Positions 8,239-46,847 of a stretch of 64,000 nucleotides of DNA are shown here, piece by piece (position 1 is the stretch's first letter; each line of letters begins with the position of its first letter). Both the position numbers and the translations under genes were made by a program. The notes under the pieces were generated by a model. That model was given only the letters and a program-made list of their open reading frames with translations, was not told the DNA's origin and searched no databases. The DNA is from Nitrospinota bacterium (GTDB taxonomy: Bacteria > JADFOP01), in the NCBI GenBank assembly GCA_022562795.1, contig JADFOP010000001.1, forward strand, positions 20,691-84,690, in the 5' to 3' direction.

Positions 8239-8311
8239 CACGGGGGAGGCCGGGGTAGCTCAGTCGGTAGAGCAGGGGACTGAAAATCCCCGTGTCGGCG
8301 GTTCGATTCCG
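8239..8311 (+). tRNA. tRNA-Phe (anticodon GAA)
   Basis: 73-nt cloverleaf: acceptor GCCGGGG/CCCCGGC, D-arm TAGCTCAGTCGGTAGAGCA, anticodon stem GGGGA/TCCCC with loop CTGAAAA, T-arm GGCGGTTCGATTCCGTC. Confidence 0.9.
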
Positions 8312-8449
8312 TCCCCCGGCACCTCGCTTATTTCCGGGATTACCTCTTGGGCAAAAATATTTTTGAAGCGGCGTCTCCGTCTAGCGGCGACCCGCCCCTG
8401 CCTCCGGCAATGGTTAACCCCATGAGGCATTTGTTTAAGTTAACATCGA

Positions 8450-39358: not shown

Positions 39359-40009
39359 ATGATGACGCCCAAGGACGAGCCCCCAATGGCATACCATCCA
39401 TTTGAACAACCAGGTCGGCCCATTACGCTGGGCGCACATCTGGAGAGCGCGCCTCACCTGGCCGAGGGTCCTCCTGCCTGCCCCCTTTGTAGGACGGTCA
39501 TTGACCTTGAGGCGCTCGAGCACTCCGTAAAGGCCAGGCGTAGTCGAGCCTCTCCCGATGAACCGATCACCTACCACCTCTCTTGCTCAATGCCCTGCTT
39601 CAACGAGGGCTGCCCGGTCTACGTTACGCTGGAGGTCACCCTCTCCGATGAGGAATACGACGCCTGGGGCCAGCTGCAAAACAAGCGGCTAGACTACACT
39701 CTCTTTCGCGACGGCCGCCCCATTACCATCGAAGCCGAAGCCGACGCATCGACAACGGCTCCGCCTCCCTGCCGCTGCCCGGCCTGTAAGTGCGAGCTCG
39801 ATCTTGCGAGCCTCATCCCGCAGTCGGAGATCCTCATCTCAGGCGCCCCCATACCGCAATCGGAAGGGCCCCCTCAAAACCGGGTGACAGCCTACACGCG
39901 CTGCCCCCAGTGTGGCATAAACTTGACGTGCGCCTGCTTCGTCCCTAACGAGGAGCTCGGCGACCTGCGGCCCCCCGGCTCACCCGGTCCGGGAGATCAC
40001 TCTCAGTAG
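39359..40009 (+). CDS. cysteine-rich hypothetical protein (multiple CxxC)
   Basis: CPLC, CSMPC...C, CRCPACKC, CPQCGINLTCAC clusters. Confidence 0.4.
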   Translation: MMTPKDEPPMAYHPFEQPGRPITLGAHLESAPHLAEGPPACPLCRTVIDLEALEHSVKARRSRASPDEPITYHLSCSMPCFNEGCPVYVTLEVTLSDEEYDAWGQLQNKRLDYTLFRDGRPITIEAEADASTTAPPPCRCPACKCELDLASLIPQSEILISGAPIPQSEGPPQNRVTAYTRCPQCGINLTCACFVPNEELGDLRPPGSPGPGDHSQ

Positions 40010-43821: not shown

Positions 43822-43858
43822 GCCAGACGCCACAACGGTGGTTTGTTCAGCAGTACCA

Positions 43859-43898
43859 CGAGGAGGGGTTTCCGGTGGGGACCCCTCCTCGTCTTTTA
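43859..43898 (+). terminator. rho-independent terminator after the MFS gene
   Basis: CGAGGAGGGG...CCCCTCCTCG 10-bp stem followed by TCTTTTAT. Confidence 0.55.
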
Positions 43899-43954: not shown

Positions 43955-43983
43955 TTGAAGCTCTCGCCGTGACTTTGTATATT
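43955..43983 (+). promoter_or_regulatory. sigma70-like promoter of the E2-JAB-E1-Ubl operon (TTGAAG-17-TATATT)
   Basis: -35 at 43955-43960, 17-nt spacer, -10 at 43978-43983, ~35 nt upstream of ATG 44017. Confidence 0.4.
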
Positions 43984-44016: not shown

Positions 44017-45156
44017 ATGAAGTCTTCCAGCCCACTTCTTAAGCGAGGTGAGCGCCATCCCCCACCGGAGGTGGCGGATGTGATGGGAGAATACGCCGAC
44101 GCCCTCGGAATGGAGGCCGGCTTCGACGATCCACCGAAGGGGTGGCGCATCTCCCCGCGCGACGGCCGCCTCTGGTGTCTCAACGATGCGGCTCCAATCC
44201 CTCCCACCATCTTTGGCCGCCTACCCGTTTTGCCTCGCGTGCAGCGGGGCGTTATTTTCGGCCATTCTTTGGCCAAGGACGCCTGCACCGCCATTGGCGA
44301 GACCCGCCGCCCAGGCAGGGGGATGCTCATCCGGGATGACGACCGCCTGGCGGTGGCCGAAGTTAAGCGGACGGCCTGTTACCTCTCCTTCGATCTGCTC
44401 TCGTGGCCTGGCCCCATAGCAGCCATCGTGTTACGCAAGGTGCTCGACGCCGCATTGGCCGCCTGCGGAGATAAGCTTGTGGCCAGCAGTCCCCTATCGA
44501 CCGATGCCCGGCAGCTAGCGATTAAGGAGCTTGCCCATCGAACCATGTCGGCCGACGCCGACTGGGCCCGACTGCAGGAGAGGGAGGCCCGTCAAGCCCT
44601 CATGGAGGCCGGCACAAACCACGCTTCCAGCCGCCGTATCCATCTAGAGGAAGAGATCTCCTCTCTGGAAGACAACCTGGCCGAGTTCTCCCGACGCATC
44701 ACGGTTGACAGCCGCCGTCTGTTCAAGTACCAGCGGGAGTTGGTGTCCCTCGAAGGCGAAGAGGGGGGCGATCCGGTTGATTTCGCCGAAGAATACGACC
44801 GGATTCGGGCCCATCCCCTCGTCGAGGAGCTTACAGCCCAAGACGACCGGCTCACGGTCACCACCCTTCCCCTGACCGCAACATTTGAGGACGAGCTCAT
44901 CAACCTCGGACGGTTTGAAATCAAAATGCACCTCAACGGAGACCTCAGGATCACCAACCTCACACGGCGGATGTGGACCTACGATCACCCTCACATTCGC
45001 GAAGGGGTCCCGTGCCTCGGGAACATCCAGGAGGGTGTGGCGAAGCTCATCGGCACCTATCAGCTTGCCGTCGTAATTCAGGTTCTCATCGACTTTCTAC
45101 AGCTCGTCAACCCCAAGGAGTGGATCGTCTCTGCCCAGTACTGGCGGGATCCCTAA
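44017..45156 (+). CDS. E2 (UBC)-like ubiquitin-conjugating enzyme homolog with large N-terminal extension
   Basis: C-terminal YDHPHIREGVPCLGNI matches the UBC HPN...Cys active-site signature; alternative start ATG 44083 after GGAGGTGG. Confidence 0.55.
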   Translation: MKSSSPLLKRGERHPPPEVADVMGEYADALGMEAGFDDPPKGWRISPRDGRLWCLNDAAPIPPTIFGRLPVLPRVQRGVIFGHSLAKDACTAIGETRRPGRGMLIRDDDRLAVAEVKRTACYLSFDLLSWPGPIAAIVLRKVLDAALAACGDKLVASSPLSTDARQLAIKELAHRTMSADADWARLQEREARQALMEAGTNHASSRRIHLEEEISSLEDNLAEFSRRITVDSRRLFKYQRELVSLEGEEGGDPVDFAEEYDRIRAHPLVEELTAQDDRLTVTTLPLTATFEDELINLGRFEIKMHLNGDLRITNLTRRMWTYDHPHIREGVPCLGNIQEGVAKLIGTYQLAVVIQVLIDFLQLVNPKEWIVSAQYWRDP

Positions 45157-45170
45157 GGGGGGCCTCTCAC

Positions 45171-45830
45171 ATGATTGAGCGTGTTCGCGTAAGCCCCGAT
45201 GCCTGGAGCCGGATGCGGCTCTACGTCGAGTGCTGTGACACCGAAATTGGGGGCCTTGGGCTTGGGACCTTGGAAGGTTCAATATTCCACCTCGAAGAGG
45301 TGGTCCTCATCGAGCAGGATGTCACGGAAATGGATACCCTCCTTTCGCCCGACGGGCTTGCCCGCTTCCTCCACGAGCTCGTGGAGGGAGGCGGGAGCCC
45401 GGCTCGGGTCAAAGTCTGGTGGCACAGCCACGTCAACCACGCGCTTAAGTGGAGCAGGCAGGACGAGGAGACCATCCGCCAGCTCAATCACGACTATCTA
45501 CTCTCCCTGATAGGCAATAAGAGCGGCCAATGGCTATGCCGACTCGACCTCGTCGGGCCTCCAGCCCGAACCGTCGAGCCGGTGCCTCTGGGGCCGACCG
45601 AGGTGGCCGGAGCGGTCGATCCGGCCTTGCGGGCCTCCATCGAGCGGGAGGTCGCCGAAAAAGTAAAGTCGTGGGAGCTAGTGCGCATTCCGGGTCAGGG
45701 AGGGTTTTTTTTCGGCACCGAGATCGTGACGAGCGACTATTCCTACGCCCTTGAAAGCTACGGCTCCTTTCTTCTTCCGTGGGAGGGAAGCCACGGCGAC
45801 CCCGCCTCCGGGCCCGAAACGGAGGAATAG
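45171..45830 (+). CDS. JAB/MPN (JAMM) metallopeptidase, deubiquitinase-like
   Basis: Exact JAMM motif WWHSHVNHALKWSRQD (HxHx7Sx2D) with upstream Glu (CCDTEIGGLG). Confidence 0.7.
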   Translation: MIERVRVSPDAWSRMRLYVECCDTEIGGLGLGTLEGSIFHLEEVVLIEQDVTEMDTLLSPDGLARFLHELVEGGGSPARVKVWWHSHVNHALKWSRQDEETIRQLNHDYLLSLIGNKSGQWLCRLDLVGPPARTVEPVPLGPTEVAGAVDPALRASIEREVAEKVKSWELVRIPGQGGFFFGTEIVTSDYSYALESYGSFLLPWEGSHGDPASGPETEE

Positions 45831-45839
45831 GCGGCGGCA

Positions 45840-46487
45840 ATGGATTACTTCCGGCAGATGGACCTCGTTGATCAGGAGGCCCTCGACATCCCGATGGTGG
45901 TTATCGGGTGCGGGGGGATTGGATCGCTGACCACGCTTGCGCTCGCCAAGATGGGCTGTCACAATCTGACGGTCTACGACGACGACATCATTGAGCCTCA
46001 CAACCTCCCAAACCAGGTCTACCGGATGGAGGACACGGGGAAGAAGAAGGTGGATGCCATCGGAGACATCCTGCACTCGTACACCGGAGCACGGATAACC
46101 GTCCGGCCCGAGCGAATAGCCGGCCAAAAGCTTCGGGGCGTCGTCATAAGTGGTGTGGACACCATGGCCGACCGGGTCCGGATCTGGCTCGATTCGGTCA
46201 AGTTAAATCCGGCCGTGCCCCTTTACATCGACGCCCGGATGGGGGGCGAGGTGACCCGGATATATTCCGTTCGCCCCGTCGACCCGTTCCATATCCAGTC
46301 GTACGAGGCGACGCTCTACAGCGACACCGAGGCCGATCCGCTGACCTGCACCGGACGGACAATTATCTACAACACCTTCGCGATTGCTGGTATCATAACC
46401 AGCCAGGTGAAGAAATTTCTCATGGGGGAGCCGTATCACCGGGAGATTCTCTTTGATCTCCACACTTTGACGCTCAACCACAATTGA
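45840..46487 (+). CDS. E1-like ThiF/MoeB-family adenylyltransferase (Ubl-activating)
   Basis: VVIGCGGIGS Rossmann motif, DDDIIEPHNLPNQ, RMGGE, catalytic Cys candidate in LTCTGRT. Confidence 0.75.
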   Translation: MDYFRQMDLVDQEALDIPMVVIGCGGIGSLTTLALAKMGCHNLTVYDDDIIEPHNLPNQVYRMEDTGKKKVDAIGDILHSYTGARITVRPERIAGQKLRGVVISGVDTMADRVRIWLDSVKLNPAVPLYIDARMGGEVTRIYSVRPVDPFHIQSYEATLYSDTEADPLTCTGRTIIYNTFAIAGIITSQVKKFLMGEPYHREILFDLHTLTLNHN

Positions 46488-46515: not shown

Positions 46516-46746
46516 ATGAAGCGGTTGACTGTCGACGAGACTAACATCGAGGTTCGGATGGTCTCGATGGGCCGGGGCGTCCAGAAGTTCGTCCGGGAGA
46601 AGGGTATCAACGTTGGTGATTTCCTCGACCAGATGGGTGTCGACCAAACCATGGACTTCCGTGTCAACGGCGCCCTGTCGGAACGGTCCCGGCCGCTGGA
46701 GCACGGCGACCAGGTGCTCATCGTCCCGAAAATCAAGGGCGGTTGA
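46516..46746 (+). CDS. ubiquitin-like beta-grasp protein ending in Gly-Gly (ThiS/MoaD/Ub-like)
   Basis: 76 aa, C-terminus ...LIVPKIKGG*; beta-grasp-like hydrophobic pattern; AAAGGGGG RBS; last gene of the operon. Confidence 0.65.
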   Translation: MKRLTVDETNIEVRMVSMGRGVQKFVREKGINVGDFLDQMGVDQTMDFRVNGALSERSRPLEHGDQVLIVPKIKGG

Positions 46747-46773
46747 TTAACTTCCAGCCCACACACCCATCAG

Positions 46774-46810
46774 CAGAGGCGGTCTGAACGAGAAGGTTGG
46801 GCCGCCTCTG
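46774..46810. terminator. possible bidirectional terminator hairpin between convergent Ubl and yjbQ genes
   Basis: CAGAGGCGG...CCGCCTCTG 9-bp stem (19-nt loop) then TCCTTCGTC. Confidence 0.3.
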
Positions 46811-46847
46811 TCCTTCGTCGGATTTGGTTGGAGACCTTGCGGCTCCG

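What the first reader, a model, noticed from the sequence alone, without database searches (positions are those of the whole stretch)
46516..46746. Ubl is encoded with a ready-exposed C-terminal Gly-Gly
The 76-aa protein ends directly in GG-stop. The JAB enzyme is therefore not needed for precursor processing. It more likely acts as a deconjugase/editor, or on substrates. That matches MoaD/ThiS-like and Bil-type Ubls rather than eukaryotic Ub precursors.
Basis: partly seen in the sequence, partly recalled or inferred. Interest (0 to 1): 0.5.

Follow-up and report, generated by a model that had tools for sequence, protein, structure and literature searches.

The report
Ready-made Gly-Gly ubiquitin-like protein gene
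A real 76-residue ThiS/SAMP2-type ubiquitin-like protein is translated already ending in Gly-Gly, which is ordinary for prokaryotes, but it is the last gene of an E2-like/JAMM/E1/Ubl operon that belongs to a large family no searched library describes.

Summary
Observation confirmed. ORF 46516-46746 (+) encodes 76 aa ending KIKGG-TGA. The GG-stop recurs in 15 of 16 close homologues from independent Nitrospinota assemblies.

It is a ThiS/MoaD/SAMP-type Ubl. Pfam ThiS scores above its cut-off. The family profile hits solved P. furiosus SAMP2 at E=1.9e-9, with the GG ends aligned. My AlphaFold model, built on a shallow alignment, failed, so the fold was not confirmed structurally.

It closes a tight four-gene operon:
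- a 379-aa protein whose C-terminal domain is a UBC/E2 homologue, with invariant HPH and Cys aligned on HPN and the catalytic Cys;
- an intact JAMM peptidase;
- a 215-aa single-domain ThiF-type E1 with an invariant Cys.

In this clade the JAB is not needed for maturation, so deconjugation is the likeliest role. That role is inferred.

Type I BilA ends in Gly, but Type II BilA is usually tailed and JAB-processed. In this Ubl's own family 57 of 109 clusters end GG-stop and about 47 carry 1-6-residue tails. Some tailed ones sit in JAB-less operons.

The naked GG is ordinary. The operon family is the interesting part: 2,585 or more E2-like clusters, also on ~190-kb viral contigs, and unmodelled in Pfam, NCBIfam, PADLOC and PHROGs.

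The parts
46516..46746 (+). Ubl gene: 76 aa, ThiS/MoaD/SAMP2-type, ends K-I-K-G-G then TGA (stop at 46744-46746).
   Evidence: ORF. (Pfam ThiS above cut-off). (family profile against SAMP2 1rws/5lda, E=1.9e-9). (GG-stop in 15 of 16 homologues).
46738..46743 (+). Codons for Gly75-Gly76, the predicted site of adenylation and conjugation.
   Evidence: G75 is invariant and G76 nearly invariant across 14 diverse family members. Both are aligned on the terminal GG of SAMP2.
45840..46487 (+). E1-like adenylyltransferase: 215 aa, a single ThiF-type domain with a GCGGIGS nucleotide loop and invariant Cys170. It has no rhodanese domain, no inactive adenylation domain and no inserted CYS domain.
   Evidence: Pfam ThiF, 5.1e-18. 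(alignment of 23 family E1s; Cys170 invariant). (closest solved structures are PaaA, ThiF, MccB and MoeB). (phrog_15670, 7.8e-24).
45171..45830 (+). JAB/JAMM metallopeptidase: 219 aa, with the full motif E25 ... H85-S-H87-x7-S95-x2-D98.
   Evidence: motif. (BRCC36, E=0.008, motif region aligned). (Prok-JAB, E=0.017, below cut-off). (homologous JABs in 29 ORFs across the related loci).
44017..45156 (+). E2-like protein: 379 aa. It has an N-terminal alpha/beta domain (about residues 1-130), a long coiled coil (about 132-246) and a C-terminal UBC-fold domain (about 255-379).
44986..45015 (+). Predicted E2 active-site flap: H324-P325-H326 ... C333 (YDHPHIREGVPCLGN).
   Evidence: invariant in 11 homologues. 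(the HPH..C.G motif is present in most of the 150 listed representatives). (aligned on HPN and the catalytic Cys86 of UbcH7).
43955..43983 (+). Promoter-like site upstream of the operon. It lies just after a strong terminator-like hairpin (43858-43892) that ends the MFS transporter gene.
   Evidence: This is a consensus match only.
46773..46811 (+). G+C-rich hairpin after the Ubl stop codon, probably the operon terminator.
   Evidence: -28 kcal/mol, z -2.96. (the hairpin is kept in L001, L010 and L009 with changed sequence).

Best explanation
The ORF is a genuine ThiS/MoaD/SAMP2-type ubiquitin-like protein. It is translated in its mature form, with the reactive Gly-Gly already at the C-terminus.

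It is the last gene of a four-gene operon, E2-like -> JAMM -> E1 -> Ubl. The proposed mechanism is below; all steps are inferred from homology.
1. The 215-aa ThiF-type E1 adenylates Gly76 and takes the Ubl onto its invariant Cys170.
2. The Ubl passes to Cys333 of the E2-like protein. This Cys follows an HPH motif that replaces the canonical HPN.
3. The E2-like protein's own N-terminal domain and coiled coil choose the target, acting as an E2/E3 hybrid, and the Ubl is attached to target lysines.
4. The JAMM peptidase is not needed to mature this Ubl. It most likely reverses or edits conjugates, as JAMM1 does for archaeal SAMPs.

In tailed relatives the same peptidase probably also trims the 1-6 residue tail.

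Shown here: the gene, the GG-stop and its conservation, the family assignments, the intact catalytic motifs, and the operon's conservation.

Inferred: every chemical step, the target and the biological role.
For: Gene and terminus.

Ubl family:
- Pfam ThiS above its cut-off.
- All 14 diverse family members hit ThiS.
- The profile hits solved SAMP2 at 1.9e-9, MoaD at 1.6e-4, and SAMP1, ThiS and TtuB at about 0.01-0.02. All hits are C-terminally registered.

E1: ThiF domain with an invariant Cys.

E2-like:
- hmmsearch against UbcH7 gives E=0.015, with HPH on HPN and Cys on Cys86.
- hhalign gives 92.9% probability over 115 columns.
- The motif is near-universal in the family.

JAMM: the motif is intact.

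Operon structure: intergenic gaps of 14, 9 and 28 nt, a Shine-Dalgarno-like motif before the JAB, E1 and Ubl genes, and hairpins on both sides.

Operon conservation: the E2-like-[JAB]-E1-Ubl arrangement recurs in dozens of unrelated metagenomic loci and on two ~190-kb viral contigs.

JAB is dispensable for the core: whole clades lack it.
Against: - No biochemical evidence exists for any step.
- The E2 flap that carries HPH and Cys has pLDDT below 50.
- The E2 similarity by sequence search against PDB is marginal (E=0.015). The hhalign E-value is for a single pairwise comparison.
- Tails after GG also occur in JAB-less operons: GGC, GGCA, GGRA. Tail state therefore does not cleanly report what the JAB does.
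- ThiS-like + E1 + JAB trios are also known from sulfur-transfer pathways.
Confidence: 0.68

Rival explanations
1. Sulfur-carrier pathway rather than protein conjugation. The E1 adenylates the Ubl and its C-terminus is converted to a thiocarboxylate that donates sulfur to a small molecule or tRNA. The JAB releases an adduct or trims the carrier. Precedents are CysO/Mec+ in mycobacterial cysteine synthesis and QbsE/QbsD in thioquinolobactin synthesis (my own knowledge of those systems).
For: - The Ubl is of ThiS/MoaD type and sources name its relatives 'sulfur carrier protein ThiS'.
- The closest solved E1s are ThiF, MoeB, PaaA and MccB.
- Many relatives end GG-Cys or GG-Cys-Ala, which resembles a CysO-Cys adduct or the QbsE GG-CF tail.
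Against: - The E1 has no rhodanese domain. No sulfurtransferase, cysteine synthase or cofactor-biosynthesis gene is in the operon or its conserved neighbourhood.
- The constant partner is a UBC-fold protein with an invariant HPH...Cys. A sulfur-relay pathway has no use for that.
- The operon occurs on ~190-kb viral contigs with two E2-like paralogues.
Confidence: 0.12
2. This is a conjugation system, but the JAB's main job is not target deconjugation. It may rescue Ubl from dead-end adducts on E1 or E2-like, cleave Ubl-Ubl chains, or process another protein such as the E2-like protein. Alternatively it may be kept only because tailed alleles such as GGLK keep arising.
For: - The JAB is intact and conserved although the Ubl needs no trimming.
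- One clade member has a GGLK tail created by loss of the stop codon.
- All six other JAB-containing lineages sampled have tailed Ubls. Trimming may therefore be the ancestral role.
Against: Characterised JAMM partners of Ubls (HvJAMM1, BilC, Cap3, Rpn11) all cleave conjugates as well as precursors (for BilC; the others are from my own knowledge). Nothing in the sequence distinguishes these roles.
Confidence: 0.15
3. The naked GG is an artefact: a sequencing or assembly error created the stop, or the TGA is read through, and the real product carries a tail.
For: One relative (L009) does read GGLK.
Against: - The identical GGC GGT TGA occurs in independent assemblies L001, L010 and L015.
- GG-stop is found in 15 of 16 clade clusters and 57 of 109 family clusters.
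- Sequence downstream of the stop is not conserved as coding. It is conserved as a hairpin.
Confidence: 0.02

Closest known systems
Archaeal SAMPylation (SAMP1/2/3, E1 UbaA, JAMM1 desampylase) and the related Thermus TtuB/TtuC system
   Same: - The Ubl is of ThiS/MoaD type and is made with a free GG. P. furiosus SAMP2 is the closest solved relative, at E=1.9e-9 with termini aligned.
- The E1 is a single-domain ThiF/MoeB-type enzyme.
- The JAMM peptidase is not needed for maturation and acts as a deconjugase.
   Different: SAMPylation has no E2. Here an E2-like protein with invariant HPH...Cys is the constant operon partner. This E1 is shorter (215 aa) and falls far below the UbaA equivalog cut-off (33.5 against 450 bits).
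Bil (Bacterial ISG15-like) operons, Types I and II: BilA Ubl, BilB E2, BilC JAB, BilD E1
   Same: - The same four kinds of component sit in one operon and there is no E3. The E2 is presumed to pick targets.
- Both free-Gly and tailed Ubls occur in the family, as they do here.
   Different: - BilD is a tandem IAD-AAD-CYS enzyme. This E1 is one 215-aa domain, and no solved BilD chain appears among its PDB matches.
[quoted passage not shown] This Ubl is ThiS/SAMP2-like.
- No sequence match to BilB was found.
- The E2-like protein carries an extra N-terminal domain and a coiled coil.
- The gene order differs.
Bub (6E/DUF6527) operons
   Same: They are bacterial E1, E2 and Ubl operons. Some contain a JAB and some do not.
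   Different: - Bub E1 and E2 lack catalytic cysteines and work through oxyesters. Bub operons always encode a DUF6527 serine protease, and components are fused as Ubl-E2, JAB-E1 or E2-E1.
- Here both cysteines are invariant, there is no DUF6527 gene, and nothing is fused.
Type II CBASS Cap2/Cap3
   Same: E1 and E2 chemistry with a JAB antagonist. PADLOC E1-E2 models match the nucleotide-binding part of this E1.
   Different: Cap2 is an E2-E1 fusion that conjugates a CD-NTase rather than a Ubl. This locus has no CD-NTase and no effector.
ThiS/MoaD/CysO/QbsE sulfur carriers with ThiF/MoeB-type E1 (with or without a JAB such as Mec+ or QbsD)
   Same: The Ubl belongs to the same family and has the same GG terminus. 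The E1 family is the same. A JAB partner is known in some of these pathways.
   Different: These pathways have no E2-like partner and include sulfurtransferase or biosynthetic genes, which are absent here.

Membership tests
ThiS/MoaD/SAMP beta-grasp Ubl family (Pfam PF02597) | Sequence match to the family model at or above the curated threshold. | tested here: met
   25.0 bits against a cut-off of 22.5, E=2.9e-5. All 14 diverse relatives match ThiS, best 1.2e-7.
ThiS/MoaD/SAMP beta-grasp Ubl family (Pfam PF02597) | C-terminal Gly-Gly in register with the family's terminal GG. | tested here: met
   The alignment runs to profile position 76 of 76. GG is aligned on the GG of SAMP2, MoaD, ThiS and TtuB.
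ThiS/MoaD/SAMP beta-grasp Ubl family (Pfam PF02597) | Beta-grasp fold. | tested here: inconclusive
ThiS/MoaD/SAMP beta-grasp Ubl family (Pfam PF02597) | Activation by an adjacent ThiF/MoeB-type adenylyltransferase. | not testable with these tools
   The E1 gene ends 28 nt upstream and is always adjacent in relatives. The activity itself was not tested.
Bil operons (Type I/II) | Operon encodes Ubl, E2, JAB and E1 as separate proteins. | tested here: met
Bil operons (Type I/II) | [quoted passage not shown] | tested here: not met
   The E1 is 215 aa with one ThiF domain covering residues 17-197. The feature is defined. The closest solved chains are ThiF, MoeB, PaaA and MccB.
Bil operons (Type I/II) | Sequence relationship of the E2 and Ubl to BilB and BilA. 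| tested here: not met
   The E2-domain profile found only eukaryotic E2s in the PDB at E<=10. The Ubl profile found SAMP, MoaD and ThiS chains and no chain named BilA. PADLOC has no hit for the Ubl or the E2-like protein.
Bub (6E/DUF6527) operons | DUF6527 serine protease gene, and E1/E2 without catalytic Cys. | tested here: not met
   No such domain is found in the operon. E1 Cys170 and E2-like Cys333 are invariant. The features are defined.
Type II CBASS (Cap2/Cap3) | E2-E1 fusion next to a CD-NTase and an effector. | tested here: not met
   The genes are separate, and there is no CD-NTase in the operon or its flanks.
E2-independent SAMPylation / TtuB-type conjugation | ThiS/MoaD-type Ubl with a free GG, a MoeB/ThiF-type E1, a JAMM deconjugase, and no E2. 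| tested here: not met
   The first three are met in kind. The 'no E2' feature fails, because an E2-like gene is the constant partner.
UBC/E2 superfamily (for the 379-aa protein) | UBC fold: helix, four-strand meander, flap, then helices. | tested here: met
UBC/E2 superfamily (for the 379-aa protein) | HPN-type motif and catalytic Cys in the flap. | tested here: met
   H324-P-H326 and C333 are invariant and aligned on the HPN and Cys86 of UbcH7. No Pfam E2 model matches any of the 23 members even at E<=1.
JAMM/MPN+ metallopeptidases (for the 219-aa protein) | E ... H-x-H-x7-S-x2-D metal and catalytic motif. | tested here: met
   E25 and H85-S-H87-x7-S95-x2-D98. BRCC36 matches at E=0.008 over the motif region. 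Pfam Prok-JAB is below its cut-off, 15.5 against 25 bits.

The most novel reading that the evidence does not exclude
The operon represents a widespread, so far undescribed class of prokaryotic and phage Ubl-conjugation systems. In it a sulfur-carrier/SAMP2-type Ubl and a minimal ThiF-type E1 are coupled to a true thioester-type E2. That E2 uses an HPH-Cys motif and is fused to variable target-recognition domains through a coiled coil. Such a system would be a living intermediate between E2-less ThiS/SAMP systems and E2-dependent ubiquitination. Phages appear to use it as well as cells, and the phage loci carry two E2-like paralogues per cassette.
Probability: 0.45. Interest if true: 0.7.

Novelty: new variant of a known kind. 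Interest (0 to 1): 0.42.

Why it matters
The naked Gly-Gly by itself is routine for prokaryotic Ubls. ThiS, MoaD, the SAMPs, TtuB and Type I BilA all have it. It only says that this clade's JAB is not a maturase.

What matters is the company the Ubl keeps. A ThiS/SAMP2-type modifier and a minimal E1 are wired to a bona fide UBC-fold enzyme, in an operon family that is large and diverse. The family has 2,585 or more E2-like clusters at 50% identity. It occurs in Nitrospinota, NC10/Methylomirabilales and Acidobacteria, and on ~190-kb viral contigs. None of Pfam, NCBIfam, PADLOC or PHROGs models the E2-like protein.

If it conjugates proteins, it adds another bacterial ubiquitination-like pathway alongside CBASS, Bil and Bub. 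It also bears on how E2-dependent ubiquitination arose from sulfur-carrier systems.

There is a practical point too. The Ubl ends K-G-G, so standard di-Gly remnant proteomics should reveal its targets directly.

Tried and rejected

2. Profile of the full-length E2-like protein against PDB sequences. Only coiled-coil noise came back. Restricting to the C-terminal domain was what worked.

3. Library scans of the E2-like protein:
- Pfam, NCBIfam, PADLOC and PHROGs gave no hits.
- Ten distant representatives gave no relevant Pfam domain.
- All 23 domain sequences scanned at E<=1 gave no E2-type model.

4. tblastn of the E2-like protein against cultured-phage and plasmid collections found no match.

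5. Genome-contig scan with the close alignment gave only 2 loci because the patterns were too specific.

6. The idea that tail presence tracks JAB presence is rejected as a clean rule. JAB-less loci carry GGC, GGCA and GGRA tails.

7. The idea that the operon sits in a mobile or defence island in this genome is not supported. The synteny MFS-[operon]-YjbQ-Zn ribbon-FG-GAP-dGTPase is conserved across all Nitrospinota loci.

8. An Rfam and tRNA scan of the window found only tRNA-Phe at 8249-8323.

9. Literature searches found no paper describing this operon type. The library is incomplete, so prior description cannot be excluded.

Full report
OBSERVATION

The ORF at 46516-46746 (+) is exactly as described: 76 codons ending ...PKIKGG, then TGA. 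The window is G+C-rich and full of chance ORFs. There are 90 ORFs of 50 aa or more in 13 kb. I therefore checked that this one is a gene.

- It has an AAGGGGG ribosome-binding motif.
- It scores above Pfam's curated threshold for ThiS (25.0 against 22.5 bits, E=2.9e-5). The match runs to the last position of the model.
- It has 16 homologous clusters at 78-99% identity from independent NCBI, ENA, JGI and Logan assemblies of Nitrospinota.
- 15 of those 16 end GG-stop, and K72-I-K-G-G76 is invariant.
- Nucleotide differences from relatives are mostly at third codon positions and mostly synonymous for the nearer relatives. The GGC GGT TGA end is identical in three independent assemblies.

A sequencing error at the stop is excluded. 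The single exception is L009, which ends GGLK. It has lost the TGA triplet and reads two codons further.

WHAT THE PROTEIN IS

With a profile of 14 diverse family members (alignment A5), the best solved relative is Pyrococcus furiosus SAMP2 (1rws and 5lda chain B). The E-value is 1.9e-9 over residues 12-76, and the two GG ends are aligned. MoaD follows at 1.6e-4, then SAMP1, ThiS and TtuB at about 0.01-0.02. All 14 members match Pfam ThiS. The protein is therefore a ThiS/MoaD/SAMP-type Ubl.

THE OPERON

Four genes are packed with gaps of 14, 9 and 28 nt. The JAB, E1 and Ubl genes each have a Shine-Dalgarno-like motif upstream. A strong terminator-like hairpin and a promoter-like site lie upstream. 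A conserved -28 kcal/mol hairpin lies downstream.

(i) 44017-45156 encodes a 379-aa protein with no hit in Pfam, NCBIfam, PADLOC or PHROGs.
- AlphaFold2 with 11 homologues (pTM 0.78) gives an N-terminal alpha/beta domain, a long coiled coil, and a C-terminal helix + beta-meander + helices domain.
- A profile of the C-terminal domain from 23 diverse members hits human UbcH7 at E=0.015. The invariant H324-P-H326 falls on HPN and the invariant C333 on the catalytic Cys86.
- hhalign against four canonical E2s gives 92.9% probability over 115 columns.
- This protein is therefore a divergent but real UBC-fold protein with a plausible thioester site.

(ii) 45171-45830 encodes a 219-aa JAMM peptidase with the complete motif E25 ... 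H85-x-H87-x7-S95-x2-D98. Its best solved relative is the deubiquitinase BRCC36 (E=0.008).

(iii) 45840-46487 encodes a 215-aa single-domain ThiF-type E1 (Pfam ThiF, 5.1e-18).
- It has the GxGGxGS loop and a Cys (C170) that is invariant across 23 family E1s.
- Its closest solved relatives are PaaA, ThiF, MccB and MoeB.
- It also matches phrog_15670, a phage family of unknown function, at 7.8e-24.

(iv) The Ubl.

THE FAMILY

An exhaustive HMMER search with the E2-like alignment found 2,585 representative clusters (50% identity) at E<=1e-3, and 1,277 at E<=1e-10. Most match only the coiled coil plus the E2 domain and carry other N-terminal regions. The HPH(V/I)...C-L-G-N motif is present in most of them.

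Context look-ups and collection scans gave about 50 loci. The arrangement E2-like-[JAB]-E1-Ubl recurs throughout. In two lineages the Ubl gene comes first.

- Whole clades lack the JAB. These are NC10/Methylomirabilales and the acidobacterial 'Sulfotelmatobacter'.
- Two ~188-190-kb viral contigs carry the cassette with two E2-like paralogues.
- In the Nitrospinota the operon sits in a conserved chromosomal neighbourhood, MFS-[operon]-YjbQ-Zn ribbon-FG-GAP-dGTPase. It is not in an obvious island.

THE C-TERMINUS ACROSS THE FAMILY

Of 109 Ubl clusters recovered with the family profile, 57 end GG-stop. About 47 carry a short tail after GG: C in 11, CA in 9, RA in 5, R in 3, and others up to 6 residues. 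Five lack a recognisable terminal GG.

With context:
- The Nitrospinota clade (JAB present) has a naked GG.
- All six other JAB-containing lineages sampled have tails: GGC in L037, GGA in the viral contigs, GGEV in L048, G-L in L036, and GGSK and GGV in the Ubl-first loci.
- JAB-less operons are mixed: GG (L020, L021, L024, L025, L027, L032, L039, L052), GGC (L011, L018, L022, L023), GGG (L007), GGCA (L050) and GGRA (L051).

The family's JAB therefore probably does trim tails where they exist, as shown for Type II BilC. In this window's clade that job has become unnecessary. The tails in JAB-less operons remain unexplained.

MECHANISM (INFERRED)

1. The E1 adenylates Gly76 and forms a thioester on Cys170.
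2. The Ubl moves to Cys333 of the E2-like protein.
3. The E2-like protein's N-terminal domain and coiled coil select the target.
4. An isopeptide bond forms.
5. The JAMM reverses or edits the conjugate.

The JAB-less clades show that the peptidase is accessory to the core E2-like/E1/Ubl trio. That fits a regulatory or recycling role.

The main rival is a sulfur-carrier pathway of the CysO/Mec+ or QbsE/QbsD kind. I rate it about 0.12. The constant partner is a UBC-fold protein, no sulfurtransferase or biosynthetic gene accompanies the operon, and phages carry it. The GG-Cys tails of relatives keep this rival alive.

COMPARISON WITH KNOWN SYSTEMS

- Archaeal SAMPylation. It works most like this in its Ubl, E1 and JAMM (naked GG, ThiF/MoeB-type E1, JAMM as deconjugase). 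It differs by having an E2.
- Bil. It has the same four parts but fails a defining feature. BilD is a tandem IAD-AAD-CYS E1, while this E1 is one 215-aa domain. No sequence link to BilA, BilB or BilD was found.
- Bub. It is not Bub: there is no DUF6527 gene and both catalytic cysteines are present.
- CBASS. It is not CBASS: there is no fusion and no CD-NTase.

Type II BilA usually has up to nine extra residues and needs BilC.

VERDICT

Its immediate inference, that no maturation is needed in this clade, is sound but ordinary. The deconjugase role is plausible and untested.

The surrounding operon looks like a new variant of bacterial and phage Ubl-conjugation systems, with an unmodelled E2 family. 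I found no paper describing it. The searchable literature is incomplete, however, and prior description cannot be ruled out.

Noticed in passing
L013 841-5423 and L014 4095-10013 (IMG/VR contigs of 189,632 and 187,988 bp; the same contigs as L043 and L046): Large viral contigs carry the cassette as E2-like (438/439 aa) - JAB - E1 - Ubl (ends QIKGGA) - a second E2-like paralogue (397/401 aa) with a different N-terminal region. This suggests one E1/Ubl pair serving two target-selecting E2s in a phage.
   Followed up: partly
L007 3319-3693; L008 568-978; L021 3591-4007; L025 2060-2476; L050 2295-2711; L051 2198-2614; L052 2508-2924: In every JAB-less locus with enough flank, a DUF2203 (PF09969) gene of 124-138 aa sits immediately upstream of the E2-like gene. 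NTPase_1, arginase and BFN_dom genes often precede it. It may be a further component of the JAB-less variant.
   Followed up: partly
Ubl genes of L011, L018, L022, L023 (GGC), L007 (GGG), L050 (GGCA), L051 (GGRA): Ubls in operons without any peptidase gene still carry 1-2 residues after the GG, most often starting with Cys. What removes them is unknown, as is whether the Cys is itself functional.
   Followed up: partly
L009 1569-1805: One Nitrospinota relative ends KIKGGLK because the TGA triplet is missing. It comes from a single Logan assembly, so it could be a real allele or an assembly error.
   Followed up: yes
window 45840-46487: The small E1 matches PHROG family phrog_15670 (unknown function) almost end to end (E=7.8e-24, profile positions 24-211 of 228). 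Related E1s are therefore already present in catalogued phage genomes, although the E2-like protein has no PHROG.
   Followed up: no
window 39359-40009 (+): A 216-aa ORF holds two similar halves, each with paired Cys motifs (CPLC...CSMPCFNEGC and CRCPACKC...CPQCGINLTCAC). This looks zinc-ribbon or treble-clef-like. Only insignificant Pfam hits were found (a RING model at E=0.21). It is separated from the Ubl operon by four genes, and relatives annotate shorter or longer versions (138 aa in L001, 254 aa in L003).
   Followed up: no
window 43858-43892 and 46773-46811: Two strong hairpins bracket the operon. The first has a 16-bp stem plus a T-run and follows the MFS transporter gene. The second is a -28 kcal/mol stem after the Ubl gene. 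It is conserved with sequence changes in L001, L010 and L009 but lacks a clear T-run.
   Followed up: partly
Locus without DNA (ENA ERZ1426828, 70-kb contig): A Ubl-first version of the cassette (Ubl ending GGSK, then proteins of 338, 201 and 207 aa) lies next to DUF6908 and Rad52/Rad22 genes. That neighbourhood suggests a phage or mobile-element context.
   Followed up: no
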